Positions 21,813 to 57,551 of a DNA stretch of 64,000 nt are shown here, piece after piece. Under the pieces are notes generated by a model. That model was not told the DNA's origin and did no database searches. It worked only from the letters and a program-made list of their open reading frames with translations. This DNA is from an uncultured Bacteroidota bacterium. Its GTDB lineage: Bacteria; Bacteroidota; Bacteroidia; Bacteroidales; UBA12481. The translations under genes and the position numbers were made by a program. Position 1 is the stretch's first letter. Each line of letters opens with the position of its first letter. The stretch spans positions 12,573-76,572 of the forward strand of contig CAINOB010000123.1 of the NCBI GenBank assembly GCA_903851365.1, given 5' to 3'.

Positions 21813-21843
21813 GAGGCTGCCCACCAAGACAGCCTCTTTTTTT
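21813..21843 (+). terminator. Rho-independent terminator between convergent blocks
   Basis: GAGGCTG-loop-CAGCCTC followed by T7. Confidence 0.8.
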
Positions 21844-26800: not shown

Positions 26801-29800
26801 ATGTAGACTTCGGCTTGTCTGAGTTCGTTGTATTCATTGAATCCATCCCAATTATTGTCTATTAAATCAACTAATTTATAGGTAACGTATTCCTCCGAAG
26901 GTATGGGATCTTTCAATACATAATCCCATGCATCGGTATTTAGTTTAAAACTTTTGTCATTACGGTCCGACCTCCAACGGCCATCAATCCCCCGCTGCAT
27001 ACCCGTTTCTTTGTATATCTTTAAGGCGGTATCATGATTTTCGGGAATGGAAAGATCTTTCCAATAACCTATTTTGGGGTCAGTCTTTTTCTCAACTTCT
27101 TCGGCTTTCACCTCACGGTCTGTTAATTCGGGTACCTTACCGTGACCAACCGGACCGCTGAAACGGAACATTTTAACATTGTCTCCCTCCTCTTTGGTCT
27201 CAATGGTATTAAAAAAGGTATCGAATGCCTCGTTAATTGCAGGAGTTTCCTCTTTGAATGGATATGGATAGGATTCCATGTTCAATCCCGATTCTCCCAT
27301 CCACTCAGTCCACGCCTTGAAATTGGCGAGATAATCGTTTTGCTCGCCTGTACGTCCAAGTTTTTCAATTACATAGTTCTCAAAAGATCGTGCCGACAAT
27401 TCAGTTGGTTTGGTCCAGTAAACATCACTACGGGAACTATCTAGAATCTTTCCCCTTCCGGGTAGGCCTGATTTGTTGATCGCATCCATTACTCCCTTAA
27501 AAGCATCGACCATCTCTGTTCTTATTCTCTCGTCGGGTACAACTACTCCATCCTTCATTACCACCTTCTGCCGTGGTTTTTCGGTCAACATGTTAAGTTT
27601 TTCCCCTCTCTTCCGGGAGAAATAGTTATCAAGTGCATGCCACCATTCATGGGCCAGGCTTCCCGCACCTCTTGTCTTGGTCAGATTGATGACTATTTTA
27701 TCCGGTTCGTAATGGGCTGAGAATTTTCCACTCCCTCTGGCACCAAACGCGATGCCTAATTCACCACCTAATGAAATGGCCTTGGATGGTATTCCTATTG
27801 CATTGGATAGGTCCATAAGGGCATCATAGGCATCATTCAGGGATGTTTGACGTTCTGCATTATCTACCCAATTTCCGAATTGAGTTCCGCGAAATCCAAA
27901 CGTATCGGAAAATACTTCGGGCGTTACATCCTTTCCTTTGCGGTAATCCGCTCCAACCCGATCCCTGTTGGTATCCCGGCGTTCATTGATAGCAACCTTC
28001 TTGCTATTCCAGAGTTCCTGGAGTTGTGCGTCCTGATCTTTTAAGAATTGGAATGCCTCTTTTGAGGATTCGATATTTTCCACCAAGCGGTTAACTCCGG
28101 TGGCCGTTTTCTTACCAATGAAGAATTTTTTCGTGTTACGGTCCTGATATACACTTAGTTTTACTCCCTGGGATTTATCCTTATTGTTTGCAATGATTGA
28201 TTGCAAACGGTCGGCAGCTTCCTGTACGGTCTTATGGTCAGAGATAATCGTATGTCCTTTGACTATACTCACCCGTTCACCGTCTTTCATGTGAAACTTT
28301 TTAATCTCAAAGGAGCCTAAATTGATATCCTCTTTAGGGAATCCGAGTGCTTTCTGCACTTCCTCGAACCAGGATAATTGATTGGCAAGATCAGAAGACT
28401 TAACTTCTTTTATCTTATCTATTAACCGCTTACCGTTCTCTTTATTCTCCAGCAATTCCTTAAATACATCAATACCATGCTGAACAGTACCTACCCATCG
28501 TTTAACCTTGTGGGTTGATCTCGGTTTCGGAGGGATAACATCGTAAAAGAATTTCAGAATCATCGCTCCGTCTTCAGTGAGAGTGCCGTCATTAACCATC
28601 TTAACAAAGTCTGGCCGTGGGAATGACTTGGAAAGGGGTTGACTAATCAGGTCATTCTCGGTGACTTTCTGTAATCGCTTGTACGTATCTTTCTTCGCAC
28701 CCTCTATCTTTTCTCCAAAGTCCGTGATTTTCTCACCAGGTTTATCGGGAATATTCAGTACATCTCCTGCAAACTTCGGTTTAACGGGTGTTGCTTCTTC
28801 GGGTTTTACCGGCTGTTCCATCTTCATCTGGCCGGCAGCTTCATCAGCCGCACGTTCTTTACCGGACTCCAATCGTTTTATATCTTCCTCCAATACCCTG
28901 ATCTGACCGTCATAGTCGGCTAATGCTTTCTTGACATTCTCGCGGGAAGCATTAAACTCGGTATCGAATAGAACGGCCCCCACGGGTTTAGTATCTCCGA
29001 AGAGTCCATTACGGTTGCTTAATTCTGCTGATTTCTTTTCCCTGGCCGTGCGGATGTTGGCCAGTTGATTCTTTTTGTCCGCAATTTCGGAATCGATCTT
29101 CTGGATAGCGAGATCACGCTCTGAGGGTTGGGTGTCCTCAGTCGGTACAACAGGGTTTATTTCTCCAGGGACTTCTCTTTTTCCTTGGCTTCCTGATTTT
29201 TCTCCCACTCCCGGGACTTCTTCACTAATTCCGAGATCTTTTCCATGGCTCTCATCTTTTGGAGCGTTGGAATCCCGGGCTTCGAGGTAGGCTTTAATTC
29301 TTTCATAATCTTTATCTTCATAAGGGAATCCTGTAAATAAATCTTCTTTCAGGGCCTTAAGGTCAGTAATTGTATTAATGCCGTTTTCATTAATGATCTC
29401 GGCGTGCTTCTGATCAATGGACGGGAAAGCCTGATTTTCTTCATTATCCAGGTTCTCAGATACAAATTTATGTTGTTTTATATCACTCCCGGTAACTTGT
29501 TTATATCTTTTTGCAAGGGCATTCTGCAGGTCGGTTGTCTTACGTATAGATTTATTAGGGTGATCCAGAATGAAGTCTACAATCATCTGCGGAGTCACTT
29601 CAGTACCGTGGATATCACTCAATTCCTGTGCGATCCCATCGATATCATTTTCCCGGTCATTTTTGGCATCGATCCAGTTGATGGCAATATTACGCCCAAT
29701 CTGATTATTATCTCCGAAACGAGCAAAGGAGCGGGCCGAAACCTTTGATTTCAGTAAGTCTTTTTGCCACTCCGGAAGGTTTGTTTCTGGAATATTCAAT

Positions 29801-32800
29801 AATTCCTCATTATATGCACTGGCGATATCATGTGGGTCATTGCCATATTCTGACTGCCACCTACGATTATCGTTCGCTCCTGGCGGTGGGGGAGGAGTTT
29901 CTTCAGGTTTTGAATTTACATCAGGTTTCCCGAATATTGCCTCACCGGCAGACTTTGGTTTTTGGACGGAATTTGTCTTGACAGTTTTTGTCTTGTCATT
30001 TTTTGGCAACTCAGGATAAACAATATCCACTCCATCAGGTTCCCCAAAGAGTATATCATTAAGCAAGTTTTTATCTGCTTGTGGAATATCACCCTTGGCA
30101 TTCAGGCTAATCTGATCAACCAATTGAGTTTTATGATCATCCCCGGCAACCTCCGCCTTGGCATTATTGATTAACCACCTGTTCCATTCCTTGGTCTGTT
30201 TATTGGCAGTACGGGAACTCGTGGCTTTATCAGTAGGAATAGGTGAAAGGTTACGGCCCGACTTACTAACTGGATTGGATGCGTCAAGTTTGAAGGGTTC
30301 CAACTGTTCGGATTTTCCGATTGGTTGTACCTTTTCGGGTACGTTATTCTTTAACTTCTGTATCTGGGCCTGAATTACCTTGATTGATCCACTATCTTGC
30401 GCAACTCCTTTAGCAATGAGATCCTTTATGAGTTGCTCCTTTTTTGAAATCTCCAACTCAGGAGAAGTGACAACCGGGGCAACCGTCTCCGTTTTAACTA
30501 CCGTTGCTTCCGGTTTAGTTTGCTCAATTACGGGTGGGATTACTTCTGGCGCTGCCTGTATTGGTGCGGATTCCAGCGGTTTTTTCGGATCAATAATAAG
30601 TTTATCGGAAATCTTTTCTTCTGTATTCCCCGCTACCATTGGGGCGCTCACTGATATTTGGTCAACATTTGGCTCCTTAAGATTCTCAGTGATCGGTGCC
30701 TCAACTGTAGGTTTGATGGTAGATTTCCCAATGATCACAAATTTTGCCTCTGCATCCGGATCCGTCTTGTCGATTTGGTTCTCAATCCTCCAGGTCCTTT
30801 GGGGATATTTGCTCTTTAATGCGTTTAAAGTTGTTTTGGGTTCGGAATTAAAAACCTTGTTTATCTGTACTTCTTCATTGGAAATAGGCACAGATGGAAG
30901 CGAAACGGTCTTTTGTCCCTTGGCCGGGAGGTTGTAAATCGTTCCCGTAGACTCAACCGGAGTTCCCTTACCAACTTCTTCTGGTATAACTCCCGGCGCC
31001 ACTACCTTGTCGGTTTTTTTCTGTTGTATCTCGGCTGCCTTCTGCTCTGCCTGTGCCTGTTCAGGAGGAATCAACTCGTCTGGTTTAACGAACGCCACCA
31101 AATCTTGTCCGTCCTGTTGATATCTGACTTTCAATTCACCGGTTACCGGATTGGTCTGATCAACTGTTATATCCTGTTTATCTCCGTTCTGGTCGGTCCA
31201 TATCCCCTTGCTTCCGGTATCAAATTGCTGATCACCTTGGGTTGGGGGTTGCAAGGCACCCGTTTGAATACCTTTATTAATTTGCTCGTAACCAATCCTC
31301 TGATATTGAGTCTGTCTTAACTCATCGGCAAACTGTCCGGCTGGTTTAACTTCGCTTCCTGTCAAGGTTTTGGAACTCACCTGCCATTTCTTGCCGGCTC
31401 CATCTACTACGGTTACCACCTGGTCAACGGAAGGATCCCCTCCGATCACCATTACGTCCTGTTTGGAATCGCCTTCTCCGACTGTGGCTTTAATTACACT
31501 TCCATCCGGACGGGTAACGATTCCCATGATCTGATCGATGTTCTTATCTGCCCTTTGTTTATAGAAGTCGGTCTCCAAATTGAGTGCGGCTTCCTTATTT
31601 TTAGGTGCCTCTTTAGCTATTTGATTGAATAAATCCAATGGAACGGTGACTTTTGTGGTTACCACTTCAGGGGCAACCCTCATCTTTTGACTATCACCAG
31701 TATATCCGACATAATTTCCGTCGTTGTCCTTGCCGATAATCTCAAATGGTTCATTCGTGTTCCCGTTGATCCCAATCGTAACCCCACCATTAGACTTTCT
31801 TGAGTCCATCTGTTGACGGGTAACAGCCAAAGTCTTCAATGGACCAGTAAAAGCCATTGTCAAGGCTCCCATACCATAGGATTCACCCACTTTCTTAATT
31901 GCTTCAAGGAACCCAGTCTTATCCTTGTCCTTTTTGAAACTGTTTTCGAGAGCAATATCCAATCCGGTGATTGAACCCATGATGTTTCCACCGGTAATGG
32001 CGTTGGAGGCCACATCCTTTATGATCCGTTGGGCTATTTCTGGGTTTTGTTCAGCAAATTCCACCAATACTTTTCGAGCTCCATTCTCAAAACCACCTTT
32101 TAACAGGGTTTCTGAAACAGTTTTGGTCATCAATTGTTCGGGAACAAGTTTGCCTAATCCGATCATAGAGGGGATGGCCATTGTCAGGCCACCGGCAAGC
32201 ATATAAAGATCCCTCGTCTTTGCGTCAACGGGTTGCCTGGTTTGTTTCATGTAGTCCTCGTAGGCCGTTCCCATCGATCCCGCACCCTCAAGTCCGTAAG
32301 CGATTCCTGTTGCAGCACTGATCAACGGTGCAGCAGGTGGAAGAGCTACACTTGCGGCCACCGAGGCAAAGAACGGGATGGCTCCCCCGAGTACCTGTCC
32401 GGCATCCCACCAGAAACCATCTTTACCTTTCGCCATTGCGGCAGCGGAAGTGATATTATGTATCCCATCATCCAGAACAGATTCCCCAAAAGTCTTCGTA
32501 GTTGCTGCATCTGCAATGGCATGAACAGTTTCCTGATTGGTTTTAGCCTTTAATTGTATGCCGGGGATAGGTAAGATACTTCCACCAGGAGTAATAATCT
32601 TGGCCTCAGATTCGGTCTGAAGTGCTTTGTATTGGTCGAGTTTTCCAGTTGCTTCCTTTATCTTTTTCTGGTAATCCTGGTATTCACCCATCTTGCCCCA
32701 CTGTTGAAGGGCATTTTGTTTCTGATCATCAAATGTTTTTTTAACATCCGTATCCAACATGTCGAACCCCGGAGCCAACTTAGCCATATCATACGGTCGG

Positions 32801-33249
32801 GTGACATCATTTAATTCGTTCTGTAACTTCTTTCCATATTCATTTAAGACATCAACCTGTGTTTGATAGTCCTGTGCTGATTTGCCAAAATCATTGTTGA
32901 CATCTATCTTCTTATGCTGAATATCAGTGGCCAATTGGTTGATCTTCTGTTTTCCTGTAACATCAACCATCACCTGACCCACACCCTTCTCAATATTCCC
33001 CAACTGCCCCTGTAGGTTATTCGCTATGGATCCGAAGAATGAACCCTTGGATTCAACTGGACCGGGAACAACTTTTGGTTCAACAACGGGTTCTGTTATC
33101 TCGGGTTGTGCGATTTCTGGGGGGGTATAGACGAATCCCGTATTCTTGGTGGCAGGTATATCGGGGGTACCCGTAACGGGAGTAAACCCATACTTTTTAA
33201 GCAGGTCCTCTTCCGGATTAGTGACTACCTGAACATCGGGTTCTGTCAT
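23830..33249 (-). CDS. Large polyvalent internal-virion/ejection protein (LPD5-, LPD1-, LPD23-like and two HExxH MPTase modules)
   Basis: 3139 aa. DFGEKIEGAKKD; FGFRG.QFGNW..AHEWWHALD; ARSFENYV..YPYP..INEAFDTFF; ETG..RG.DGRWR; LHELQHFIQDIEGF..GEVEA. Confidence 0.85.
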   Translation of the reverse strand: MTEPDVQVVTNPEEDLLKKYGFTPVTGTPDIPATKNTGFVYTPPEIAQPEITEPVVEPKVVPGPVESKGSFFGSIANNLQGQLGNIEKGVGQVMVDVTGKQKINQLATDIQHKKIDVNNDFGKSAQDYQTQVDVLNEYGKKLQNELNDVTRPYDMAKLAPGFDMLDTDVKKTFDDQKQNALQQWGKMGEYQDYQKKIKEATGKLDQYKALQTESEAKIITPGGSILPIPGIQLKAKTNQETVHAIADAATTKTFGESVLDDGIHNITSAAAMAKGKDGFWWDAGQVLGGAIPFFASVAASVALPPAAPLISAATGIAYGLEGAGSMGTAYEDYMKQTRQPVDAKTRDLYMLAGGLTMAIPSMIGLGKLVPEQLMTKTVSETLLKGGFENGARKVLVEFAEQNPEIAQRIIKDVASNAITGGNIMGSITGLDIALENSFKKDKDKTGFLEAIKKVGESYGMGALTMAFTGPLKTLAVTRQQMDSRKSNGGVTIGINGNTNEPFEIIGKDNDGNYVGYTGDSQKMRVAPEVVTTKVTVPLDLFNQIAKEAPKNKEAALNLETDFYKQRADKNIDQIMGIVTRPDGSVIKATVGEGDSKQDVMVIGGDPSVDQVVTVVDGAGKKWQVSSKTLTGSEVKPAGQFADELRQTQYQRIGYEQINKGIQTGALQPPTQGDQQFDTGSKGIWTDQNGDKQDITVDQTNPVTGELKVRYQQDGQDLVAFVKPDELIPPEQAQAEQKAAEIQQKKTDKVVAPGVIPEEVGKGTPVESTGTIYNLPAKGQKTVSLPSVPISNEEVQINKVFNSEPKTTLNALKSKYPQRTWRIENQIDKTDPDAEAKFVIIGKSTIKPTVEAPITENLKEPNVDQISVSAPMVAGNTEEKISDKLIIDPKKPLESAPIQAAPEVIPPVIEQTKPEATVVKTETVAPVVTSPELEISKKEQLIKDLIAKGVAQDSGSIKVIQAQIQKLKNNVPEKVQPIGKSEQLEPFKLDASNPVSKSGRNLSPIPTDKATSSRTANKQTKEWNRWLINNAKAEVAGDDHKTQLVDQISLNAKGDIPQADKNLLNDILFGEPDGVDIVYPELPKNDKTKTVKTNSVQKPKSAGEAIFGKPDVNSKPEETPPPPPGANDNRRWQSEYGNDPHDIASAYNEELLNIPETNLPEWQKDLLKSKVSARSFARFGDNNQIGRNIAINWIDAKNDRENDIDGIAQELSDIHGTEVTPQMIVDFILDHPNKSIRKTTDLQNALAKRYKQVTGSDIKQHKFVSENLDNEENQAFPSIDQKHAEIINENGINTITDLKALKEDLFTGFPYEDKDYERIKAYLEARDSNAPKDESHGKDLGISEEVPGVGEKSGSQGKREVPGEINPVVPTEDTQPSERDLAIQKIDSEIADKKNQLANIRTAREKKSAELSNRNGLFGDTKPVGAVLFDTEFNASRENVKKALADYDGQIRVLEEDIKRLESGKERAADEAAGQMKMEQPVKPEEATPVKPKFAGDVLNIPDKPGEKITDFGEKIEGAKKDTYKRLQKVTENDLISQPLSKSFPRPDFVKMVNDGTLTEDGAMILKFFYDVIPPKPRSTHKVKRWVGTVQHGIDVFKELLENKENGKRLIDKIKEVKSSDLANQLSWFEEVQKALGFPKEDINLGSFEIKKFHMKDGERVSIVKGHTIISDHKTVQEAADRLQSIIANNKDKSQGVKLSVYQDRNTKKFFIGKKTATGVNRLVENIESSKEAFQFLKDQDAQLQELWNSKKVAINERRDTNRDRVGADYRKGKDVTPEVFSDTFGFRGTQFGNWVDNAERQTSLNDAYDALMDLSNAIGIPSKAISLGGELGIAFGARGSGKFSAHYEPDKIVINLTKTRGAGSLAHEWWHALDNYFSRKRGEKLNMLTEKPRQKVVMKDGVVVPDERIRTEMVDAFKGVMDAINKSGLPGRGKILDSSRSDVYWTKPTELSARSFENYVIEKLGRTGEQNDYLANFKAWTEWMGESGLNMESYPYPFKEETPAINEAFDTFFNTIETKEEGDNVKMFRFSGPVGHGKVPELTDREVKAEEVEKKTDPKIGYWKDLSIPENHDTALKIYKETGMQRGIDGRWRSDRNDKSFKLNTDAWDYVLKDPIPSEEYVTYKLVDLIDNNWDGFNEYNELRQAEVYIHNGADEGEQCSYYDGKIYVNQTFAKGENAEGLSQKSNLYPVLRIGLLHELQHFIQDIEGFESGANYNSIPELALSRFKDLSTQEIIDNLDRFSPNWRKYHPDLDKGISENNPEVIEKGRKIIAYFHSSGEVEAYNTEVRDRMTDEERGKTLISDTEIVPRNQQWSSKENESKAYKFAGDKIGFNDKISHVPGVTESTEFYDKFRESLLNTLIPYTRGGGGKMASQVMRENLGHQARTMDLMAARLKEAKIEFDKMTKDESLTFIDNMERGIPQDNIDLQNYSDALREGLDTSREKVRELGTGKLDSYIENYFPHAWEDPKKAGQVLFSGKRPLEGSKAFLKQRTVPTTKEGVDKGLIPITWNPVEAALSKIREMEQYVMAHRTINELKEAGYVKYVRVGKDRPEGFVKIDDKVSTVQIKTDDGLQIVGHYYAQENAATILNNFLSKGLRGNQLYDIYRGLGNTITQVQLGLSAFHLGFTSMDASISKFALGLEYMYQGKIGSALKHFAITPAAPVTNFIQGDKLMKAWYGNPATPELQLIAEYMELAGGRAQMDDFYAQKFGDKLHDHIKNRRYIRAAWQFPLKLIELTSKPILGYIVPRQKLGVFMDMARYEMEVHPDATIEERRAALQYAWNSVDNRMGQLVYDNLFWNKVFKDVAMASVRSVGWNLGTIREVGGAPKELFGVLKDTMSGKRSENTHKIAYVISLFGITMLYNALLQFIRTGKGPDEFKDYFFPKTGRITSSGDWERSSLPTYVKDLYHYGTNFIGTIKNKLSPVNSIVVQMKNNKDFYGVKIFNEDDPFYQKGLEVIKYLGTQLIPFGIRNAQKSVGKSTLDKILPFVGITPAPYDLNMSRAEKRAYEMMARKLPVGGRTTEQKERSDHKRELAIELRATGGNFGRINQELRTHVISKEEHDDLKENYMLTGLQSTVKHFSYDEAWHIYKMAMPDERKQLYNIVKTKMENKRKDKSLSTAERDDVNAMYNELKNSR

Positions 33250-33253
33250 GGTA

Positions 33254-34531
33254 TTAACGGTAACTGATTTGAGCCTTCTGAAGTAATGCCTGTTGCTGTT
33301 CCTTGGTCAATGCCTTGAAAGCAGGGTCATTCTGTAATTGAATCAAACGATTGTCCTGTTTACTTTGAGTAGTGGTAGTAGATGGAGGAGTGATTAAGGG
33401 TGCGGCTTGGGTACTAGAAGTCTGCTGTGCCTTCAAATTATCCCCATGGAGATACTTGAAATATTTATTTACAGCGGTCTTCCTTCCATCCGTTGTTGTT
33501 AGATCGGCATTTTCTAATCCCTTATATCGTTCATCCAATGTCTTATACTGACCCGTTGGCTTTCCTTTTTTATCCAGAATTGGTTCCTGGTTCTTATCTT
33601 GAATGTTTTGCAGAAGATCTACAGTGGTAAGAAAATCACCCTCGTTTAAATTGTAATCTTGTCCTTTTGAATCTTTTGGAGTAAAATAGGCCTGTTTGGA
33701 AGATGGTTTCTCAGCGTTGACTTCCTTCTGCTTATCACCTCGTTGATCAATCAGGCCGCTCTGAATATTTCCCTGCTGGTCAATTTGTCCGCTCCGTATC
33801 GCTCCAGCTAATCTTGCCAGGTTCTCTTTGTCTGGTAAGGTTTCGTCCCAGAACTGAGATTTGTTTTGGGATTTCAGTTTCTCTAATTCAAGAGCCTGAT
33901 CTTTGGATAACTGCCTTTGGGTCTCCAGATATAACATTCTGTCCTTAGAATTCTCCTGGCGCGTTAACTCATTCTGTTTCCATTGTGCCTGACGATCTTT
34001 ATCGGATTCATCACTCTGCATCTTCCACCGGTTCATCCACTCTTCATTTCCCCGGTTATATTGGTAATCCTGTAACATGAGTTGCAGTTGTTCGGCATTG
34101 GCCCTTTGCTCCTGGTTCATCTGTTGGTTCCAGAGTTCATCCATCCTTGCGATGTCAAGTTGGGACGTTCCTTTAACAGGTGATATCGGGGCACCCTTTG
34201 AAGCTCCATAAGCGGAGAATAAAGATTTAACCACATTCCCAAGTCCATTAACCATTCCCTGAGCAGCTACTCTCCGCTGCTGACGGGCGAGTTCATCCTG
34301 AGTTTTTGCCTGATTGTCATGGACTAAACCCAAAAAAGGATTTGTACTCCACTGTTTAGGTTGAGGGGTCACGTCTACCGTCGAAGATACCATTCCTGAT
34401 TTCACATTGGGATTCATGCGATTGCGAAAATCCGTCGCCGGATCAATCAGGTTGAAAGGTTTCGGTCCGGGCATCTTGCTGAAAAGGGCTAATGCCTTCG
34501 CGTAGTCGGTGGTGGGATCCTGTGTGCTCAT
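33254..34531 (-). CDS. Putative ejection (DNA injection) protein
   Basis: Likely start MSTQDP; Gln-rich coiled-coil protein between ejection genes. Confidence 0.65.
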   Translation of the reverse strand: MSTQDPTTDYAKALALFSKMPGPKPFNLIDPATDFRNRMNPNVKSGMVSSTVDVTPQPKQWSTNPFLGLVHDNQAKTQDELARQQRRVAAQGMVNGLGNVVKSLFSAYGASKGAPISPVKGTSQLDIARMDELWNQQMNQEQRANAEQLQLMLQDYQYNRGNEEWMNRWKMQSDESDKDRQAQWKQNELTRQENSKDRMLYLETQRQLSKDQALELEKLKSQNKSQFWDETLPDKENLARLAGAIRSGQIDQQGNIQSGLIDQRGDKQKEVNAEKPSSKQAYFTPKDSKGQDYNLNEGDFLTTVDLLQNIQDKNQEPILDKKGKPTGQYKTLDERYKGLENADLTTTDGRKTAVNKYFKYLHGDNLKAQQTSSTQAAPLITPPSTTTTQSKQDNRLIQLQNDPAFKALTKEQQQALLQKAQISYR

Positions 34532-41792: not shown

Positions 41793-43541
41793 TTATGCAG
41801 CGATTTTCTTATTCATTAATCCTTTAGCAGTGGCTTCCACTAATGCGGTAGCCATATGTACTTCAACGGCGTTTCCAATGAATTTTTTCTGGTCAGCCTG
41901 GGTACCGATAAGTATGTAGCTTTCCGGGAAACCCATAATCTTTTTTAACTCCGGGATACGGAGCATCCTCATTTTGATATCGATGATTCCATAAATAGCC
42001 ATGAATTCCTTGATCTTGACCAGGATTTCGCTGTCTCCTTCTATAATCTCATAGACTATTCCTTCTTCGTAAGGAATAATGAATGATGGTATATTACTTT
42101 CATCTGTGGCAACATCGATAAGGTATGGTGGCATTTTGTCCATTCGGGCAATGAGCGTAAAACATGGGCGATCGATAGATCCACCTGACGAAGTAAATTG
42201 AGGATTCATGAGATAGTGCCATTTCCTGTTGGCGGTAATCACCGGGGCCGGATTCTCAATCGAACTGCCAACATTATTAAAGTTGGTGTCCATCACCCAA
42301 GGTTTGACCGTCATTAGGTTCTGCTTGGGGACCGTGGAAATGGCAGGACACGGCTTTTCTACATCCGAGGATTGCCCACCTCCAGTATATTGGTTCATGA
42401 TGTACCTGTCAACCACAACTGGTGCAAATTTGGGATTTGCTGTCAGTGTCCCGATTGGTTTATCAATGCTGGCCGGGGTGGATTGTCCGTACTGTTGATC
42501 AATGAACCGGGTTTGAATCAATGATATCCGGTCTTTGGTTGTCACCGTTGGACTCGGCTTCTCAATTGATGAAACATTGTCACCGTTTCCGTAGTATGAA
42601 GCCAGAAATTCTGTATTAATCAGCTGGTGATGGTCCTTGCATGTGATGGTTCCTGCAGGACGATCAACTGATACTGACTTACTTTTCGGGTCCCCGGAAA
42701 ACGCTTTCGATAAAAATGCCTTCTGGCCCCCGGCCACAAACTTGATCAACCCTGCATAGATTCTTTGCAGTGTAGCCTCCACCAGCGGTTTCTTGCGATC
42801 AAAAATACTCCAGCCTTCATCGGAAAAATCAAGAACCTCTTTTACAGCTTTCCATTTTTTCAGGGGTTTCCCGAAAAGACTATTTTCTGGCTTTTCGGCG
42901 TGTGTTGGTTCCGGCCAATAGATTTCTTCTCCCAGTCCTGCAAACTGCCCGAAATACCGCTTGCGTGATGTGAACGCGCCGTAATTGGCAGCATTTAGAA
43001 TTCTGTGTTCAAACTTATACCCATAAGACTTCACAGAGTTAATCCATCGGAGATAATCAATACCGGCGTCTTTGCTTATTGGTTTTCCTTTTTCATCCAG
43101 GGGTCCCCAACTCATGAATTCTTCGACGTTCTCAATCTGGATTATTTCTGGCTGTATCGCGGTGATATATGGGAAAAGATGATCCGCTAAGGTTCGGCTG
43201 TCTGCATCTCTGGCTTGTCCACCCTTGGCTTTGCTGAAATTTGTGCATTCTAAACTGGCAAACAGTACAACCTTGGCATCCGGGTAAATAAATTGCAGGT
43301 AATTGACATGCCTGACAAGCCGTGTCATGCGCGAAGTGTTGTATAGAAGGGTAATGTCCTCAGTAAAATGTAGGGTCTGCTTATGGTTTGATTTGTGCGA
43401 TCGGATGGCGTTTTCATCGTGATTGATACAGGCAGCAACAATGGCGCACTGTTCACCACCAATCCGCGCATTGTGAACACCGGTTGTTGTACCTCCTCCA
43501 CCGCAGAACAGATCGACATAGATCAAGGTTACATTCTTCAT
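41793..43541 (-). CDS. C5-cytosine DNA methyltransferase with repeated TRD-like segments
   Basis: DLFCGGGG, SLECTNFS, ENVEEF, TSRKRYF, GNAV; repeated S.D.P..T(I/V)T units. Confidence 0.93.
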   Translation of the reverse strand: MKNVTLIYVDLFCGGGGTTTGVHNARIGGEQCAIVAACINHDENAIRSHKSNHKQTLHFTEDITLLYNTSRMTRLVRHVNYLQFIYPDAKVVLFASLECTNFSKAKGGQARDADSRTLADHLFPYITAIQPEIIQIENVEEFMSWGPLDEKGKPISKDAGIDYLRWINSVKSYGYKFEHRILNAANYGAFTSRKRYFGQFAGLGEEIYWPEPTHAEKPENSLFGKPLKKWKAVKEVLDFSDEGWSIFDRKKPLVEATLQRIYAGLIKFVAGGQKAFLSKAFSGDPKSKSVSVDRPAGTITCKDHHQLINTEFLASYYGNGDNVSSIEKPSPTVTTKDRISLIQTRFIDQQYGQSTPASIDKPIGTLTANPKFAPVVVDRYIMNQYTGGGQSSDVEKPCPAISTVPKQNLMTVKPWVMDTNFNNVGSSIENPAPVITANRKWHYLMNPQFTSSGGSIDRPCFTLIARMDKMPPYLIDVATDESNIPSFIIPYEEGIVYEIIEGDSEILVKIKEFMAIYGIIDIKMRMLRIPELKKIMGFPESYILIGTQADQKKFIGNAVEVHMATALVEATAKGLMNKKIAA

Positions 43542-52268: not shown

Positions 52269-53039
52269 TTAACAGGCGATTTTTTTGAATACTTCTCCCA
52301 GAAGGAATTTCCGGCCACTCTGGGTCCAATAGAGATGTTGGGTACTGACGGTTCTCCCCAATGCATCGGTGTGGTAGTGTGTTTTGTAGGCGGTATACCC
52401 CTTGTCTTTATAGGAGGAAAACAAGGTGTAAGTGCCATTTACCCCATAGATAATCTTCCTGCGTACCAATTCCCGGTTCAGTGAAACTGCCGACATACCT
52501 AATTCCTGAGCAATCACCGTGGTGGCAATCAATCCATCAGACTGTAGTACGGTATCGTGGTATTCAACTTTCGGGGCCTGAATCTGGAGTTGTTGGGTTT
52601 GTTCCTCCGTGCGAATACGAAGTTGTTCTTTTTCAGCACGTTCTGTTTTTAGTGCCGTTGCCAGACTGATAATGAAATCCGGGTTTAGAAGATCTTCCGG
52701 GTTAACAGCGGTTGCGCCGTGTTTTCCAAGTTCCTTCAGCCTATCATTACACCAGACCCTGAACTTAACACTCAACCATTGGGCATAATCCAGGGCAAGA
52801 TCTTCATGAAACCAGGAGCCACCATATCGACCTTCTTCGGTCAGAATTAAACTACGGGAAAATCCCGCAGTTAAACTTAACTCATTGATTAACTCAATGG
52901 TTGACGGAAGTCTTAAGTAATCATTTGGCTTTTTACCAAATTGCTTTGCCATCTCGGTGGCATTTACATAGACCACTCCGTTTTCGTTTCGGAATGATAC
53001 CGGCTGATCGTTGTACTGAAAAATCTTTAGTGTGTTCAC
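52269..53039 (-). CDS. Antirepressor, KilA-N + ANT (KilAC) domains
   Basis: VNATEMAKQFGK.PNDYLRL, G.W.HE.LALD.AQWLS; QAPKV.Y.D, IAQELGMSA..LN, YWT..GR. Confidence 0.92.
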   Translation of the reverse strand: MNTLKIFQYNDQPVSFRNENGVVYVNATEMAKQFGKKPNDYLRLPSTIELINELSLTAGFSRSLILTEEGRYGGSWFHEDLALDYAQWLSVKFRVWCNDRLKELGKHGATAVNPEDLLNPDFIISLATALKTERAEKEQLRIRTEEQTQQLQIQAPKVEYHDTVLQSDGLIATTVIAQELGMSAVSLNRELVRRKIIYGVNGTYTLFSSYKDKGYTAYKTHYHTDALGRTVSTQHLYWTQSGRKFLLGEVFKKIAC

Positions 53040-53095: not shown

Positions 53096-53599
53096 TTAGG
53101 ATAGCAAGTACTGCTCATACAGGGTCGTAAACGTCCGTCCTGCGTATTCGGCCAACGCCCTCGATTTAAAGCAAAGCCGAGAACCGACGTTCGTATACGC
53201 AGCCGAAGCCCCGACATCCGAGCGAACGATACCGAAACCCGCACCCGCCCCATCAGACGCATCACCACCAACGAAAAACCAGGGGTAATACTTGTACTCG
53301 TTCGAGTCATTCCAGTTTGGCTTCCATCCTTCGTTTAGAACTTCGGACAGGACCAACAACTGAAATTCAGCAATAAGTCTTTTGGTGTAATCACTTTTCA
53401 AGTCACAGATATGCTTATATTCCAACCTGATCGATGGTCTTATCTGCTCCATGATGGATAGCGCATCTTCGAAAGACTTCATTCGCTCCTTAATATCAAC
53501 GATGAAATAATCTTTCCCAAACTCAGACGCTAAAGCCTTTTTGACCTCCTTACTTCCGGTTTGGTGAACCTGGAGTAATTTTACTTTTTCGTTATTCAT
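53096..53599 (-). CDS. Small protein with C-terminal DGR-type variable region
   Basis: LNEGW.P.W....YKYYPWF...GSRLCFKS..LAEYAG..F..LY family; adenine-depleted segment. Confidence 0.8.
   Translation of the reverse strand: MNNEKVKLLQVHQTGSKEVKKALASEFGKDYFIVDIKERMKSFEDALSIMEQIRPSIRLEYKHICDLKSDYTKRLIAEFQLLVLSEVLNEGWKPNWNDSNEYKYYPWFFVGGDASDGAGAGFGIVRSDVGASAAYTNVGSRLCFKSRALAEYAGRTFTTLYEQYLLS
53168..53275 (-). repeat. Putative DGR variable repeat (VR) ending in an IMH-like GGTTCTCGGCTT
   Basis: 8 A in 108 nt on the coding strand; fits the GGNANNGANAGFxxxNSNNxxSNANTNIGSRL template pattern with NNY codons at every N. Confidence 0.75.
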
Positions 53600-53600
53600 G

Positions 53601-53753
53601 TTATTCGTTATTTGTGCCGGTTAGTAATCTCATTTTGGTCTGACGTTCATCCGGGAGAAGTTTCCGGGTCGAAACCAGTTCGCCTTCATTGTTATAAGCG
53701 GCCATTACGCCCTCGGGTTGATCGTTGTACTTGAAAATTTCTAAAGAGTTCAT
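53601..53753 (-). CDS. 50-aa chimeric ORF (not in the ORF track)
   Basis: MNSLEIFKYNDQPEGVMAAYNNEGELVSTRKLLPDERQTKMRLLTGTNNE; fills the gap between cro and the VR gene. Confidence 0.65.
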   Translation of the reverse strand: MNSLEIFKYNDQPEGVMAAYNNEGELVSTRKLLPDERQTKMRLLTGTNNE

Positions 53754-53755
53754 GA

Positions 53756-53971
53756 TTATTCTCCCCATACATCGGTTACACCATACTTTGCGAAAATGGT
53801 TACGATTGTTTCTGCCTCGCTAACTCTTGGCTCAACCTTTCCGTTGAGGCGTCCAAGCCAGGCAGCACGGGTTTTAATGCCGATAGCTGACATGATCTCG
53901 CGTTTGATCTTTGGGACATCCTGATGTTTTGCCTGTCCGAATCCCATTCTGAATGAGTATTTTCCGTTCAT
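53756..53971 (-). CDS. Cro-like regulator
   Basis: Likely start MNGKYSF; LNGKVEP.VSEAE.I..IF.KYG...VWG; divergent from the repressor. Confidence 0.75.
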   Translation of the reverse strand: MNGKYSFRMGFGQAKHQDVPKIKREIMSAIGIKTRAAWLGRLNGKVEPRVSEAETIVTIFAKYGVTDVWGE

Positions 53972-53976
53972 ATTAA

Positions 53977-54078
53977 TTTGGTTTATTGTTCTATTGTTTT
54001 GTACATTTGTATAGTGTGTGTAAACAGTATGCAATATTAGAACAATGTTCCGACTTGTGCAAGTTATTTCGGAACATT
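53977..54078. promoter_or_regulatory. Lysis/lysogeny switch: Bacteroidota sigma-A promoters and operator
   Basis: Rightward TTTG-N21-TACATTTG (53977-54009); leftward TTG-N20-TAATATTG (54062-54032); inverted repeat AATGTTCCGA...TCGGAACATT (54044-54078). Confidence 0.65.
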
Positions 54079-54108: not shown

Positions 54109-54807
54109 ATGGGAGTTAAGGAAAAAATTATTGAATTTATTGCTTACAAAGGATTGCCGATTAAGCAGTTTGAGGAAAGATGTGCCCTATCCAATGGCTA
54201 TGTCTCATCAATGCGCAAAGGATTCGGAACGGAAAAATTGGACAATGTCCTACGTGAATTCCCGGATTTAAATAGAGATTGGTTGCTTTATGGCGAAGGT
54301 GAGATGTTAAAGGATTTGGGGCCGGTGAGTGAGCTCAAGCCGAAGTTATATGCAGATCATCTTGAGGTTAAACTCGTAACCTTAACAGCCCGCGCCGGAT
54401 ATTCAGAATCTTATTATGCCGATGAGTATCTTGACAAAATGCCATCCGTCCTCATAGAATCCGATGCCGAATACCACGGTAAATACCTGGCTTTCGAGGT
54501 TGATGGGGATTCCATGGAACCGGAGTATCATACTGGAGATATTGTTATCTGCCGGGAAGTCAAACGCGACCTTTGGCGATATAAACTACATTATAATGAC
54601 TGGGATTTTGTTATTGCTCATGGAACCAAGGGCATCATGTTAAAGCAGATTATTGCCCATGATACAGAGACCGGGGAGATCGTTTGCCACTCGCTTAATC
54701 CGGATGGTCACCCGGATTTCATTTTGAACCTCGGAGAAGTTGCATACCTATACAATGTCGTTGAGCATAGAATTCCGGGGAAGAACGTCATGCGGCGAAG
54801 GGGATGA
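54109..54807 (+). CDS. CI-like repressor (HTH + S24 peptidase)
   Basis: FE..C.LSNGY, DLNRDWLLYGEGEM, A-G site (ARAGY), FEVDGDSMEP, MLKQI. Confidence 0.92.
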   Translation: MGVKEKIIEFIAYKGLPIKQFEERCALSNGYVSSMRKGFGTEKLDNVLREFPDLNRDWLLYGEGEMLKDLGPVSELKPKLYADHLEVKLVTLTARAGYSESYYADEYLDKMPSVLIESDAEYHGKYLAFEVDGDSMEPEYHTGDIVICREVKRDLWRYKLHYNDWDFVIAHGTKGIMLKQIIAHDTETGEIVCHSLNPDGHPDFILNLGEVAYLYNVVEHRIPGKNVMRRRG

Positions 54808-56096: not shown

Positions 56097-57332
56097 TCAG
56101 GTGTTCTTAAAAAAAACATGCTCCTTCAGTGACTCCGCGATCTCCTTTTCTCCTACTTTGACATATTTCATAAATGATGCGATGGTTTTGTGTCCGGTTA
56201 ATGCCATAATACTGATAATGGGAATCCCGGCCAGGTAACAGTTCGTCGCAAAGGATCTTCTGGCGGTGTGTGAGGTAATCATTTCCCATTCCTTATATTC
56301 CCTGGTTATCCGGTTTCCCCCTTCAGTCCGGGTTTTGCTAATCACCTCCACCAAGTCTGCTTGTAAACCAATTACCTTCAAATCTTCATTCATATTTATA
56401 TTGGATTTGGGTTTCGGTAATATCCCCCGATATTTTTCGATGATATCCATAACTAGGGGATGCAAAGGAAGCGTTACCCGGCCACCGGTTTTCTTCTGGA
56501 TATACGAAAGGTACCCCTCTTTGAAATTTGCCATTGTTATTATCGAAACATCTGAATATCTAAGGCCAGTGAATGCCTGTATGATAAAAAGGTCCCTTGT
56601 TCGTTCATACCGGCCCAGAAGTTTGCATTCCGCTATTTTTTTGAGTTTATCTACGGAAAGATAGATATTCTCCACTTCCTCCTGAGGGGCCTTAAAACGT
56701 GAGGTAAACACGACTGAGGGGACCATCTCTCCCCGATCCTTAGCTTTTTGTAATACTCCTTTGATTATTTGAACAGATCCCCAGATATAATTCTTGCTGT
56801 AGGATTTGACCTTTGCAAATTTCCGGACCTGAAAATACTGGATCCAGTTCTCCAGAAACTCCATTCCGACTTTTGATACCAGGACTTTCCCATGTATCTT
56901 TTCATAGTTGCGAACATGAATTGCCAATGAATCATACATTCGGTAACTTTTATTGTCTCTGGCTTTTAGGTTGTCACTCTGTTGTTGGACGCATTCCAGA
57001 AGGGAGAGTTGGAGACCCGAGGTAATCCGTTTCCCATCGAACTGCAGAAGGAGGTTATTGAGCAAAACTATATCCGGGTCCTTCCCTTCCCTTTGCCAGG
57101 TACCCAGAATATCCGTTATCTTTGCCACCAGATTTTCAATACGTTCATTGATAGCCGCCTGATCCCTACACGGCCGCATCCGCTGAGATTTGGGGTTCCA
57201 ATCTTTTATGAGACACTTTTTACCGGCTGGGTAACGCAAGATACAATCCCGGGAGAAGATTACATAAACTTGAATGGTTCCGGATTCTTCCTGGGCAGAA
57301 GATTTTTTTAGGTACACACGGATACTGGCCAT
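56097..57332 (-). CDS. int: Tyrosine integrase (Bacteroidota Arm-SAM-catalytic type)
   Basis: Likely start MASIRV; RDLF....FTGLRYSD, QKKTG, ITSHTARRSFATN, LTGHKT...F.KYV. Confidence 0.95.
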   Translation of the reverse strand: MASIRVYLKKSSAQEESGTIQVYVIFSRDCILRYPAGKKCLIKDWNPKSQRMRPCRDQAAINERIENLVAKITDILGTWQREGKDPDIVLLNNLLLQFDGKRITSGLQLSLLECVQQQSDNLKARDNKSYRMYDSLAIHVRNYEKIHGKVLVSKVGMEFLENWIQYFQVRKFAKVKSYSKNYIWGSVQIIKGVLQKAKDRGEMVPSVVFTSRFKAPQEEVENIYLSVDKLKKIAECKLLGRYERTRDLFIIQAFTGLRYSDVSIITMANFKEGYLSYIQKKTGGRVTLPLHPLVMDIIEKYRGILPKPKSNINMNEDLKVIGLQADLVEVISKTRTEGGNRITREYKEWEMITSHTARRSFATNCYLAGIPIISIMALTGHKTIASFMKYVKVGEKEIAESLKEHVFFKNT

Positions 57333-57551
57333 TTTGTTGGGATTTGGTATAATGTTTCCCAGGATAAGAATTGGGAAACATTTTTCAAAGATAATGGTAA
57401 ACCAAATATAAGCAAATATCCAATAAATGACTGTTTTTAACTGTAATTGAATTATTGTAAACCTCATGAAATACCAGTATTTACAAAGATTTCCAGTAAT
57501 TCACTGTAGCGCCCGACGGAGTAGATGCATGAAATATGTCAAAATGGAAAA

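What the first reader, a model, noticed from the sequence alone, without database searches (positions are those of the whole stretch)
53096..53599. Remote DGR variable repeat in a small cytoplasmic early gene beside cro and the antirepressor
Seen: the coding strand of 53168-53275 has 8 A in 108 nt. Against the recalled template pattern GGNANNGANAGFxxxNSNNxxSNANTNIGSRL, the N positions read GAT, TCT, GAT, GGT, CGC, GAT, GTC, GCT, TAT, AAC, all reachable from AAY by changing only adenines, and I reads GTC. Known: this is the footprint of adenine-specific mutagenic retrohoming. No RT or TR was seen in the window. Inference: one DGR diversifies both a fibre and, about 53 kb away, a non-structural early protein, i.e. 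a hypervariable intracellular binder (anti-defence or lysis-lysogeny sensor).
Basis: partly seen in the sequence, partly recalled or inferred. Interest (0 to 1): 0.85.

Follow-up and report, generated by a model that had tools for sequence, protein, structure and literature searches.

The report
Second DGR target in phage early gene
A small early gene of a prophage in a lake bacterium carries a real second target of the phage's mutagenic retroelement, but such distant non-structural targets have already been described in gut Bacteroides phages.

Summary
The coding strand of 53168-53275 has 8 A in 108 nt. It matches a template repeat (TR) that lies 1.2 kb left of the window. All 22 of 22 mismatches sit at TR adenines (p = 2.4e-16). 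A reverse transcriptase gene (RT) starts about 100 nt after the TR. A tail-protein repeat (VR1) lies just before the TR.

The gene, 53096-53599(-), encodes 167 aa and is the third gene of the operon that diverges from an S24 cI-like repressor. A KilA-N/ANT antirepressor follows it. A sister prophage in another assembly encodes the same protein with 13 changes. All 13 lie in the repeat, at TR codons that hold adenine. Its tail protein is rewritten too.

The protein belongs to a large phage family, phrog_11581 (2375 clusters at 50% identity). One member is the distal target in LoVEphage, which I equate with the Quimbyvirus of Benler et al. 2021. A 2025 Nature paper reports four more gut prophages with a distal second repeat. 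This is therefore a new member of a known kind.

- **Not confirmed:** a C-type lectin fold for the small protein, any function, and variation within the sampled population.
- **"53 kb":** this is the distance in the integrated prophage. Across the phage attachment junction it is about 9 kb.
- **Added here:** in 38 of 80 related loci, small targets sit directly before TR-RT.

The parts
53096..53599 (-). Gene for the 167-aa DGR target protein (family phrog_11581). No Pfam, NCBIfam or PADLOC match, and no hydrophobic N-terminus.
   Evidence: ORF. phrog_11581 at E 2.8e-31. No match. Hydropathy. Family size: 692 homologues and 2375 representative clusters.
53170..53274 (-). VR2, a 105-nt variable repeat (residues 110-143). 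It matches the TR at C123:11280-11384 except at 22 TR adenines.
   Evidence: 22 of 22 mismatches at A, p = 2.4e-16. The allele P0271 differs at 13 residues, all inside this stretch.
53168..53185 (-). 3' end of VR2, read on the coding strand as GGTTCTCGGCTTTGCTTT. It is identical in VR1 and differs from the TR at three TR adenines within this 18-mer. I read it as the IMH-like element that marks a repeat as recipient.
   Evidence: Alignments. The same VR/TR difference recurs in related phages. The function is inferred from the Bordetella phage model as described in PMC5758913.
53601..53768 (-). 55-aa ORF directly upstream of the target gene. Its start repeats the 5' end of the antirepressor gene.
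   Evidence: 13 of 27 residues, E 2e-6. phrog_12688 fragment.
53756..54034 (-). First ORF of the leftward early operon, in the position of cro. It matches no family.
54109..54807 (+). Divergent cI-like repressor with a Peptidase_S24 domain.
   Evidence: PF00717, E 2.2e-8.
52269..53039 (-). Antirepressor (KilA-N + ANT), the next gene downstream of the target gene.
   Evidence: PF04383 E 1.2e-19; PF03374 E 1.7e-22.
56097..57467 (-). Tyrosine integrase at the probable right end of the prophage. A WYL regulator and a PKD-domain protein follow it.
1..126 (-). First 42 codons of the 413-aa tail protein that carries VR1. The rest of that gene lies left of the window (C123:11457-12572), as do VR1 (C123:11471-11575), the TR (C123:11280-11384) and the RT (C123:10211-11176).
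   Evidence: phrog_5302 E 1.4e-85; phrog_1423 E 4.3e-113; P0272, 413 aa, 100% identical; the model matches TaqVP 5vf4 at E 1.4e-6.

Best explanation
Window 53096-53599(-) encodes a small protein whose residues 110-143 are a second, non-adjacent variable repeat (VR2) of the prophage's single diversity-generating retroelement.

Shown:
- The cassette runs tail-protein VR1, then the TR, then the RT, and sits at the left end of a roughly 64-kb prophage.
- VR2 lies in the early operon next to the immunity region at the right end.
- VR2 equals the TR except at TR adenines.
- Both repeats share a 3' end that the TR lacks.
- Both repeats have been rewritten between two near-identical prophages, while the rest of each protein stayed the same.

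Inferred from the Bordetella phage model: TR RNA is copied by the RT with errors opposite adenines. The cDNA then replaces either repeat, guided by the shared 3' element, and acts in trans on VR2.

Inferred function: the protein is a non-structural binder with a variable surface, made early after induction or infection inside the cell. It most likely acts on a variable host or competitor factor (counter-defence or host take-over) and is not part of the virion.

It belongs to the same family as the distal DGR target of LoVEphage/Quimbyvirus.

The confidence given (0.85) is for the claim that this is a genuine, recently rewritten DGR target of that family. For the functional reading alone I would give about 0.4.
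For: DGR membership:
- Only three copies of the repeat exist in the 5.2-Mb genome.
- VR2 against the TR: 22 of 22 mismatches at TR adenines, p = 2.4e-16. VR1: 19 of 20.
- The RT is an intact 321-aa ORF. It matches RVT_1 (E 2.4e-17) and phrog_1423 (E 4.3e-113), and starts about 100 nt after the TR.
- The VR1 host is a phrog_5302 tail protein. Its model matches the Thermus DGR variable protein 5vf4 (E 1.4e-6).

Activity on VR2:
- Allele P0271 is identical at 154 of 167 residues. All 13 differences lie at residues 113-138, each at a TR codon with adenine.
- An assembly whose longest contig has the same length (209,183 bp, so probably the same one) carries a VR1 allele with 12 of 15 differences at residues 375-404.

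Family behaviour:
- Among 35 gut 162-aa homologues (of the 40 I aligned from the 120 listed), all 8 columns with four or more residue types lie at positions 117-131.
- In 38 of 80 IMG/VR loci a homologue lies directly before a TR and an RT. Across the 39 loci with a TR-like copy, 550 of 559 mismatches are at A.
- In two complete phage records the homologue is 37 kb and 11 kb from the RT, with 18 of 19 and 16 of 18 mismatches at A.
- In LoVEphage MW660583.1 the homologue shows 19 of 19 at A.

Non-structural reading:
- The gene abuts the ORF upstream and lies 56 nt before the antirepressor, in the operon that diverges from the S24 repressor. Erf and replication genes follow.
- There is no hydrophobic N-terminus.
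- In the complete 48-kb phage G007, two tandem homologues with TR-RT lie between the integrase and the exonuclease/annealing protein/DNA polymerase. They are the only matches to that TR in the genome.
Against: - No variation was seen in VR2 in the four metagenome runs laid. Contigs of X1 and X2 bridge the repeat with no differences. These are assembled contigs at depth 2-9, which drop rare variants, and both bridging runs are flagged as possible sources of this DNA. They therefore say little.
- No Avd-type accessory gene lies on the contig. The four PF05635 genes in the genome are elsewhere. This arrangement is known: TR-RT cassettes without an accessory gene make up 75 of 372 DGRs in PMC5758913.
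- Downstream of VR2 the predicted hairpin has only a 3-bp stem, against 5 bp after VR1.
- The CLec fold expected of DGR targets was not recovered for the small protein. There was no Pfam hit in any of 80 members, no PDB sequence hit, and no Foldseek PDB hit below E = 3.7. The repeat region of the model has pLDDT of about 54.
- Nothing tested here shows that the protein is expressed, stays in the cell or binds anything. A virion role is not excluded.
Confidence: 0.85

Rival explanations
1. The small protein is structural after all: an auxiliary receptor-binding or tail-decorating protein that is diversified together with the tail protein to change host range. On this reading its place in the early region is incidental.
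For: It shares its repeat with a tail protein, and phrog_5302 'tail protein' matches residues 69-147 (E 1.8e-7). Published phage DGR targets are mostly tail proteins (PMC8144416, passages). Both repeats changed together between the two strains.
Against: - Similarity to the tail protein is confined to the repeat that the TR itself writes.
- The gene sits among immunity, antirepressor and recombination genes on the early strand.
- In G007 the whole cassette lies between the integrase and the replication genes.
- In LoVEphage the homologue lies among methyltransferases and RtcB.
- Benler et al. also read the distal target as non-structural.
Confidence: 0.15
2. VR2 is a relic. It was written by the DGR in the past but is no longer a recipient, so the protein is now fixed.
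For: The allele is identical in the contigs of four runs from two studies. The hairpin after VR2 is weak. No Avd is present.
Against: - A near-identical prophage carries a different VR2 with 0 changes in the other 140 residues, so rewriting is recent.
- The 3' recipient element is intact and identical to that of VR1.
- The RT ORF is intact.
- All 75 non-adenine positions of the core still equal the TR. A relic would have drifted at some of them.
Confidence: 0.07
3. The small proteins next to TR-RT are DGR accessory factors that happen to carry a repeat, comparable to the CH1 genes of 160-169 aa described by Wu et al. On this reading they are not effectors.
For: The sizes match (160-169 aa). 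CH1 occurs only in cassettes without avd (PMC5758913, passages). In 38 of 80 loci the homologues sit directly before TR-RT. This cassette has no avd.
Against: - CH1 proteins are acidic (pI 4.7 +/- 0.2). The 80 aligned family members average pI 6.26 +/- 1.4, and this protein is at 6.7.
- An accessory factor would not be expected to be hypervariable.
- Here and in other phages the gene lies far from the RT.
- The CH1 sequences are in supplements that I could not open.
Confidence: 0.04
4. The adenine-poor stretch is a compositional accident or an ordinary duplicated segment, with no retroelement involved.
For: None found.
Against: 22 of 22 mismatches fall on 30 adenines among 105 positions (p = 2.4e-16). 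An RT lies beside the A-rich copy. The same pattern appears in 39 related loci.
Confidence: 0.01

Closest known systems
Distal DGR target of Quimbyvirus ('Quimbyviridae', Benler et al. 2021, PMC8008677; passages read). I equate it with Bacteroides phage LoVEphage MW660583.1, CDS 33613-34197.
   Same: - One phage DGR serves two repeats, one after the tail genes and one far away in a small protein read as non-structural.
- The proteins are homologous: BLASTP E 9e-13 and 26% identity over residues 23-166. One search places this window's protein in phrog_11581; the LoVEphage protein itself was not scanned against PHROGs.
- Mismatches are adenine-only in LoVEphage as well (19 of 19).
   Different: - Here the RT is a single ORF. 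In LoVEphage it falls into three frames, as Benler describes.
- Here the neighbours are the repressor, the antirepressor and Erf, not methyltransferases and RtcB. The nearest methyltransferase is about 9.5 kb away.
- The host is a freshwater Bacteroidota genome, not a gut Bacteroides.
- The protein is 167 aa against 194 aa.
- Equating LoVEphage with Quimbyvirus is my inference from matching features, not a statement read in a paper.
[quoted passage not shown]
   Same: Bacteroidota prophages in which a BLAST search with the TR finds a second repeat far from the RT, interpreted as part of the phage-host arms race.
   Different: [quoted passage not shown] I could not compare sequences, because the figures and supplements are not held.
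Non-adjacent targets of phage-associated DGRs (Wu et al. 2017/18, PMC5758913; passages read).
   Same: The targets lie within about 50 kb of the RT inside the same prophage. Cassettes of TR-RT type without an accessory gene are also described.
   Different: That survey gives no functional class for such targets in the passages I read.
Bordetella phage BPP-1 DGR (mtd-avd-TR-brt), as summarised in PMC5758913.
   Same: Adenine-specific rewriting of a repeat near the 3' end of a gene. The recipient is marked by a 3' element that differs from the TR.
   Different: - BPP-1 has one adjacent structural target.
- Avd is essential in BPP-1 and absent here.
- BPP-1 has a GC-rich inverted repeat after IMH, which is weak at VR2 here.
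Thermus aquaticus DGR variable protein TaqVP (PDB 5vf4).
   Same: The model of the VR1 tail protein matches it (Foldseek E 1.4e-6, TM 0.42-0.47).
   Different: The small VR2 protein gives no such match.

Membership tests
DGR variable repeat / target gene | A TR-VR pair whose mismatches fall only at TR adenines | tested here: met
   22 of 22 for VR2 and 19 of 20 for VR1, with 30 A among 105 positions.
DGR variable repeat / target gene | A reverse transcriptase gene next to the TR | tested here: met
   A 321-aa ORF starts about 100 nt after the TR. RVT_1 E 2.4e-17; phrog_1423 E 4.3e-113. It is below the cut-off for the group II intron, retron and Drt models. The sequence contains IGNYLSQ. That this motif marks DGR RTs is recalled, not tested.
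DGR variable repeat / target gene | A recipient-specific 3' element (IMH in the VR against IMH* in the TR) | tested here: met
   VR1 and VR2 share an 18-nt 3' end that differs from the TR at three TR adenines within the 18-mer. The same pair occurs in relatives. Function is not tested.
DGR variable repeat / target gene | A GC-rich hairpin just downstream of the VR | tested here: inconclusive
   VR1 has a 5-bp stem with a 3-nt loop. VR2 has only a 3-bp stem with a 4-nt loop.
DGR variable repeat / target gene | An accessory gene (avd or another) in the cassette | tested here: not met
   No PF05635 match on contig C123; four lie elsewhere in the genome. Cassettes without an accessory gene are a known class.
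DGR variable repeat / target gene | The repeat lies in a C-type lectin fold | tested here: inconclusive
   The VR1 protein matches TaqVP. The small protein has no Pfam hit in 80 members, no PDB hit, and pLDDT of about 54 over the repeat.
DGR variable repeat / target gene | Differences between close strains are confined to the repeat | tested here: met
   P0001 against P0271: 13 of 13 differences lie in residues 113-138.
DGR variable repeat / target gene | Variation within a population at the read level | tested here: inconclusive
   Only assembled contigs of four runs could be laid, and they showed no differences. Raw reads were not available.
phrog_11581 small DGR-target family (includes the LoVEphage/Quimbyvirus distal target) | Sequence homology over the whole protein, not only the repeat | tested here: met
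   phrog_11581 E 2.8e-31 over residues 10-166. BLASTP to the LoVEphage protein E 9e-13 over residues 23-166. Conserved blocks on both sides of the repeat.
phrog_11581 small DGR-target family (includes the LoVEphage/Quimbyvirus distal target) | Located away from structural genes, with counter-defence neighbours (methyltransferases, tRNA ligase) | tested here: not met
   The gene is away from structural genes, but its neighbours are immunity, antirepressor and recombination genes. The methyltransferase at 41793-43541 is about 9.5 kb away.

The most novel reading that the evidence does not exclude
The phrog_11581 proteins are phage-made, DGR-diversified intracellular binders, a kind of antibody-like early protein. 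They neutralise variable host defence proteins or sense competing phages. In some phages they are the only DGR targets: in the complete 48-kb phage G007, two tandem copies sit before TR-RT between the integrase and the replication genes, and no other repeat exists in the genome. For that RT lineage, the primary use of the retroelement would then be an intracellular arms race and not tropism switching. The tail-protein repeat of this prophage would be an added second client.
Probability: 0.3. Interest if true: 0.75.

Novelty: new member of a known kind. Interest (0 to 1): 0.4.

Why it matters
What DGR-diversified proteins do when they are not receptor-binding proteins is an open question. This locus does not open that question, which Benler et al. 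2021 and the 2025 Nature paper already raised, but it sharpens it in four ways:
- The family is very large: 2375 clusters at 50% identity.
- It reaches beyond the human gut, into freshwater and soil Bacteroidota and some Clostridia MAGs.
- It sits beside the lysis-lysogeny switch in many temperate phages.
- In some complete phages it is the only client of the retroelement.

Cultured relatives exist (LoVEphage-like prophages of Bacteroides and Phocaeicola), so the function can be tested directly.

Tried and rejected
- **INPHARED phages.** tblastn of the 167-aa protein against the phage collection gave no match. A gut homologue as query was needed to reach LoVEphage.
- **Fold and family of the small protein.** Pfam found nothing at E <= 0.01, and nothing relevant at E <= 0.1 in 80 members. 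NCBIfam and PADLOC found nothing. A PDB profile search gave only chance hits at E >= 0.33. Foldseek against PDB gave a best E of 3.7. Foldseek against BFVD returned only uncharacterised phage proteins. The ESM Atlas returned only unnamed, mostly viral clusters.
- **Similarity to the VR1 tail protein.** The strong, near-identical part is the repeat (residues 110-144); the BLASTP alignment extends upstream only at low identity with 30% gaps.
- **Attachment sites.** No direct repeat of 14 nt or more, or of 10 nt or more in narrower ranges, was found between the presumed prophage ends. No tRNA lies at the right end. The prophage limits, and the 9-kb figure, are therefore estimates from gene content.
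- **Metagenome scans.** An exact 35-nt pattern found nothing. A protein scan with P0002 found two distant loci of no use. DNA of allele P0271 could not be fetched, so the strain comparison is at protein level only.
- **Genome scan with P0271.** Eleven distant relatives were found, none close.
- **Sequencing runs.** No RNA holder is listed. Only contigs could be laid, and no differences were listed. In X3 two contigs meet at 53251-53270, the 5' edge of the repeat. In X4 one contig leaves the stretch at 53275 into the sequence that flanks VR1. I read this as VR1 cross-laying on VR2 and as graph branching at the shared repeat. It is not evidence of variation.
- **CH1 lead.** The accessory gene of Wu et al. 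matches in size but not in pI. Its sequences are in supplements I could not open.
- **Tentaclin 'target2' lead.** PMC10743442 (passages) describes in-cassette targets of other phages, and nothing links them to this family.
- **Other papers.** Roux et al. 2021 (PMC8144416, passages) state that their pipeline would not detect remote targets. The LoVEphage paper (PMC8525569, passages) notes an RT after a tail collar fibre gene and says nothing of a second target. Supplements of all papers were closed, and they may list this family among unnamed target clusters.
- **Complex prediction.** No job was sent, because no binding partner is claimed.
Full report
**The observation.** The window is G000:C123:12573-76572. 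The ORF at 53096-53599 on the minus strand encodes 167 aa. On its coding strand, 53168-53275 has 8 A in 108 nt, against 32.6% A in the rest of the gene. A search of the whole 5.2-Mb genome with the 3' part of the gene finds only two further copies of this stretch. Both lie on the same contig, just left of the window, at C123:11469-11576 and 11285-11384.

Aligned in register, the lower copy is A-rich: 30 A in a 105-nt core. In the frame of the repeat it translates as VSGNANNEANAGFGNVNSNNEASDTNTNIGSQLY. It is the template repeat (TR). The window copy, VR2 (53170-53274), differs from it at 22 positions, and all 22 are TR adenines (hypergeometric p = 2.4e-16). The other copy, VR1, differs at 20 positions, 19 of them adenines. 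The 75 non-adenine positions of VR2 are identical to the TR, although the proteins around the two repeats are unrelated.

**The retroelement.** An intact 321-aa ORF (C123:10211-11176) starts about 100 nt after the TR. It matches RVT_1 (E 2.4e-17) and the PHROG reverse-transcriptase family phrog_1423 (E 4.3e-113). It stays below the curated cut-offs of the group II intron, retron and Drt models.

VR1 lies at the end of a tail protein (phrog_5302, E 1.4e-85). That protein is really 413 aa long and begins inside the window at 126. Its AlphaFold model (pLDDT 81.6) matches the Thermus aquaticus DGR variable protein 5vf4 (Foldseek E 1.4e-6).

Both repeats end in the same 18 nt, which differ from the TR at three TR adenines within those 18 nt. 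This is the pattern of a recipient-marking IMH as described for the Bordetella phage (PMC5758913, passages).

No avd-like gene lies on the contig. TR-RT cassettes without an accessory gene are a known class, 75 of 372 in that survey. The hairpin predicted after VR1 has a 5-bp stem, and the one after VR2 only 3 bp.

**Genomic setting.** To the left of C123:6356 lie host genes: a SusC-like protein, a glycoside hydrolase-like protein, a Gfo/Idh/MocA oxidoreductase and an Lnb-like protein. To the right of the integrase (window 56097-57467) lie a WYL regulator and a PKD-domain protein. Between them are the terminase, the portal, the tail protein with the DGR, replication and recombination genes, a methyltransferase and the immunity region. 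This amounts to a prophage of about 64 kb.

The target gene is the third ORF of the operon that diverges from an S24 cI-like repressor. The order is: a 92-aa ORF with no family match (the 'cro' position), a 55-aa ORF, the target gene, and then a KilA-N/ANT antirepressor, Erf and DnaD/DnaC-like loaders.

TR and VR2 are 54.4 kb apart in the integrated form. The cassette is at the left end of the prophage and the immunity region at the right end. After excision and circularisation they would therefore be only about 9 kb apart. This is inference, because I found no att repeat.

**Is VR2 really rewritten?** The cluster of this protein holds a second allele, P0271, from another assembly. It is identical at 154 of 167 residues. 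All 13 differences lie at residues 113-138, each at a TR codon that contains adenine, and 11 of them at AAY codons.

An assembly whose longest contig has the same length (209,183 bp, so probably the same one) holds a VR1 allele, P0393. Twelve of its 15 differences lie at residues 375-404. Both repeats were thus rewritten between two near-identical prophages.

Against ongoing activity, contigs of four freshwater metagenome runs from two studies show the window's allele and no differences. Contigs drop rare variants, and the two runs whose contigs bridge the repeat (X1, X2) may be the source of this DNA. This neither shows nor excludes current activity.

**The protein family.** The protein matches phrog_11581 (unknown function, E 2.8e-31). 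It matches nothing in Pfam, NCBIfam or PADLOC.
- The word-indexed search found 692 homologues among 752 candidates.
- The exhaustive search found 2375 representative clusters at E <= 0.001 and 867 at E <= 1e-10. Most are 120-170 aa, and some are 250-300 aa with two matched stretches.

Most of the 120 listed hits are 162-aa proteins on contigs of about 47-51 kb. I aligned 40 of the 120 listed, of which 35 belong to this group. All 8 columns with four or more residue types lie at positions 117-131. Thirty columns outside the repeat vary, but none has four or more types. Members occur in Bacteroidales, Ferruginibacter, Dyadobacter, Puia and Chryseobacterium, and in two Clostridia MAGs.

**Two architectures in relatives.** Of 306 IMG/VR stretches that encode a relative, 80 loci were kept. 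Several are near-duplicates of one another, so the counts are not independent.
- **Local (38 of 80).** An RT 49-58% identical to this one starts 211-616 nt after the last small gene. Thirty-six of the 38 have two or three tandem copies of the small gene. All 38 have a TR-like copy between the small gene and the RT.
- **TR-like copies.** Over the 39 loci with such a copy, 550 of 559 mismatches are at its adenines, and in 30 loci all of them are.
- **No RT or TR nearby (41 of 80).** In 25 of the 42 loci without an RT, a repressor-like or integrase gene lies 6-9 kb upstream.
- **Remote, confirmed.** I searched five such records for the RT. The two that are at least 99% complete have it, 37 kb and 11 kb from the small gene. 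Beside it lie a TR and a further VR copy, whose host gene I did not examine. The remote repeat differs from that TR at 18 of 19 and 16 of 18 adenine positions. The three records without an RT are 52-87% complete.
- **Small targets only.** In the complete 48-kb phage G007 (direct terminal repeats), two tandem small targets, the TR and the RT lie between the integrase and an exonuclease, an annealing protein and a DNA polymerase. They are the only matches to that TR in the genome.
- **Many targets.** In G006 one TR has four repeat matches.

**What is already known.** Benler et al. 2021 (PMC8008677, passages) describe Quimbyvirus. Its DGR has an RT split over three frames and two repeats. One follows the tail fibre genes. 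[quoted passage not shown]

A gut homologue of the present protein hits a 194-aa hypothetical protein of Bacteroides phage LoVEphage MW660583.1. Four features match that description:
- Its neighbours include cytosine and Dam methyltransferases and RtcB.
- The LoVEphage RT falls into three frames.
- Its repeat differs from the TR at 19 of 19 adenines.
- It aligns with the present protein over residues 23-166 (E 9e-13).

I conclude that the present gene belongs to the family of that published distal target. Equating LoVEphage with Quimbyvirus is my inference.

A 2025 Nature paper (PMC12629997, passages) reports four induced gut prophage species with a second repeat distal from the RT, near counter-defence genes. 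Wu et al. (PMC5758913, passages) noted many non-adjacent targets within 50 kb in prophages. Searches found no paper that names this small family, its tandem arrays before TR-RT, or its place beside the repressor. Supplements were closed, so unnamed target clusters may include it.

**Fold and function.** The AlphaFold model of the small protein has mean pLDDT 84.6. It is helical over residues 1-88 and 147-166. The repeat region is irregular and of low confidence, with pLDDT about 54. It matches nothing in the PDB and only uncharacterised phage proteins in BFVD. The C-type lectin fold expected of DGR targets, and reported by HHpred for the Quimbyvirus proteins, is therefore not confirmed here.

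The protein has no hydrophobic N-terminus. Together with its operon, this favours an intracellular protein made early. I take it to be a binder with a variable surface that acts on a variable host or competitor factor. This step is inference, and a virion role remains possible.

**Verdict.** This is a real, recently active, non-adjacent DGR target in an early-operon protein. It is a new member of a known kind. Its function is unknown but testable in cultured relatives.

Noticed in passing
window 53601-53768 (-) versus 52969-53039 (-): The 55-aa ORF just upstream of the target gene repeats the 5' end of the antirepressor gene just downstream of it (13 of 27 residues, with a conserved DNA block around the start codons). 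The target gene is thus bracketed by two KilA-N-type gene starts, as if inserted by recombination between such genes.
   Followed up: partly
L079 9947-12040 (IMG/VR record G007, 48,193 bp, direct terminal repeats): In this complete phage the DGR's only repeat matches are two tandem small phrog_11581 genes directly before TR-RT, between the integrase and the replication genes. No tail-protein repeat was found in the genome.
   Followed up: partly
L073 / record G006 (55,347 bp provirus): One TR has four repeat matches spread over the record, at about 0.6, 39.8, 48.9 and 52.7 kb.
   Followed up: no
window 1-126 (-) and C123:11457-12572: The VR1 tail protein is 413 aa and crosses the left edge of the window. 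The 357-aa ORF seen in the flank alone is a truncation.
   Followed up: yes
window 23830-33249 (-): A 3139-aa ORF lies next to the portal gene (21842-23830). It was not examined.
   Followed up: no
one search list (for example P0123-P0126, P0134): Some family members are 250-300 aa with two matched stretches. They look like fused tandem duplicates of the small target.
   Followed up: no
L111, L112 (Lachnospiraceae and Clostridia MAGs): The family also occurs outside Bacteroidota, at 36-37% identity.
   Followed up: no
C123:9912-10214 (-), just after the RT: A 100-aa ORF (phrog_19665, unknown function) overlaps the RT stop. It is a possible accessory gene of this avd-less cassette.
   Followed up: no
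window 53251-53275, runs X3 and X4: Assembled contigs of two runs break or leave the stretch at the 5' edge of VR2. One continues into the sequence that flanks VR1. This is most simply graph branching at the repeat shared by VR1 and VR2.
   Followed up: partly
G000 contigs C62, C46, C103, C71: Four PF05635 (23S rRNA IVP / Avd-like) genes lie elsewhere in the host genome, none on the prophage contig.
   Followed up: no
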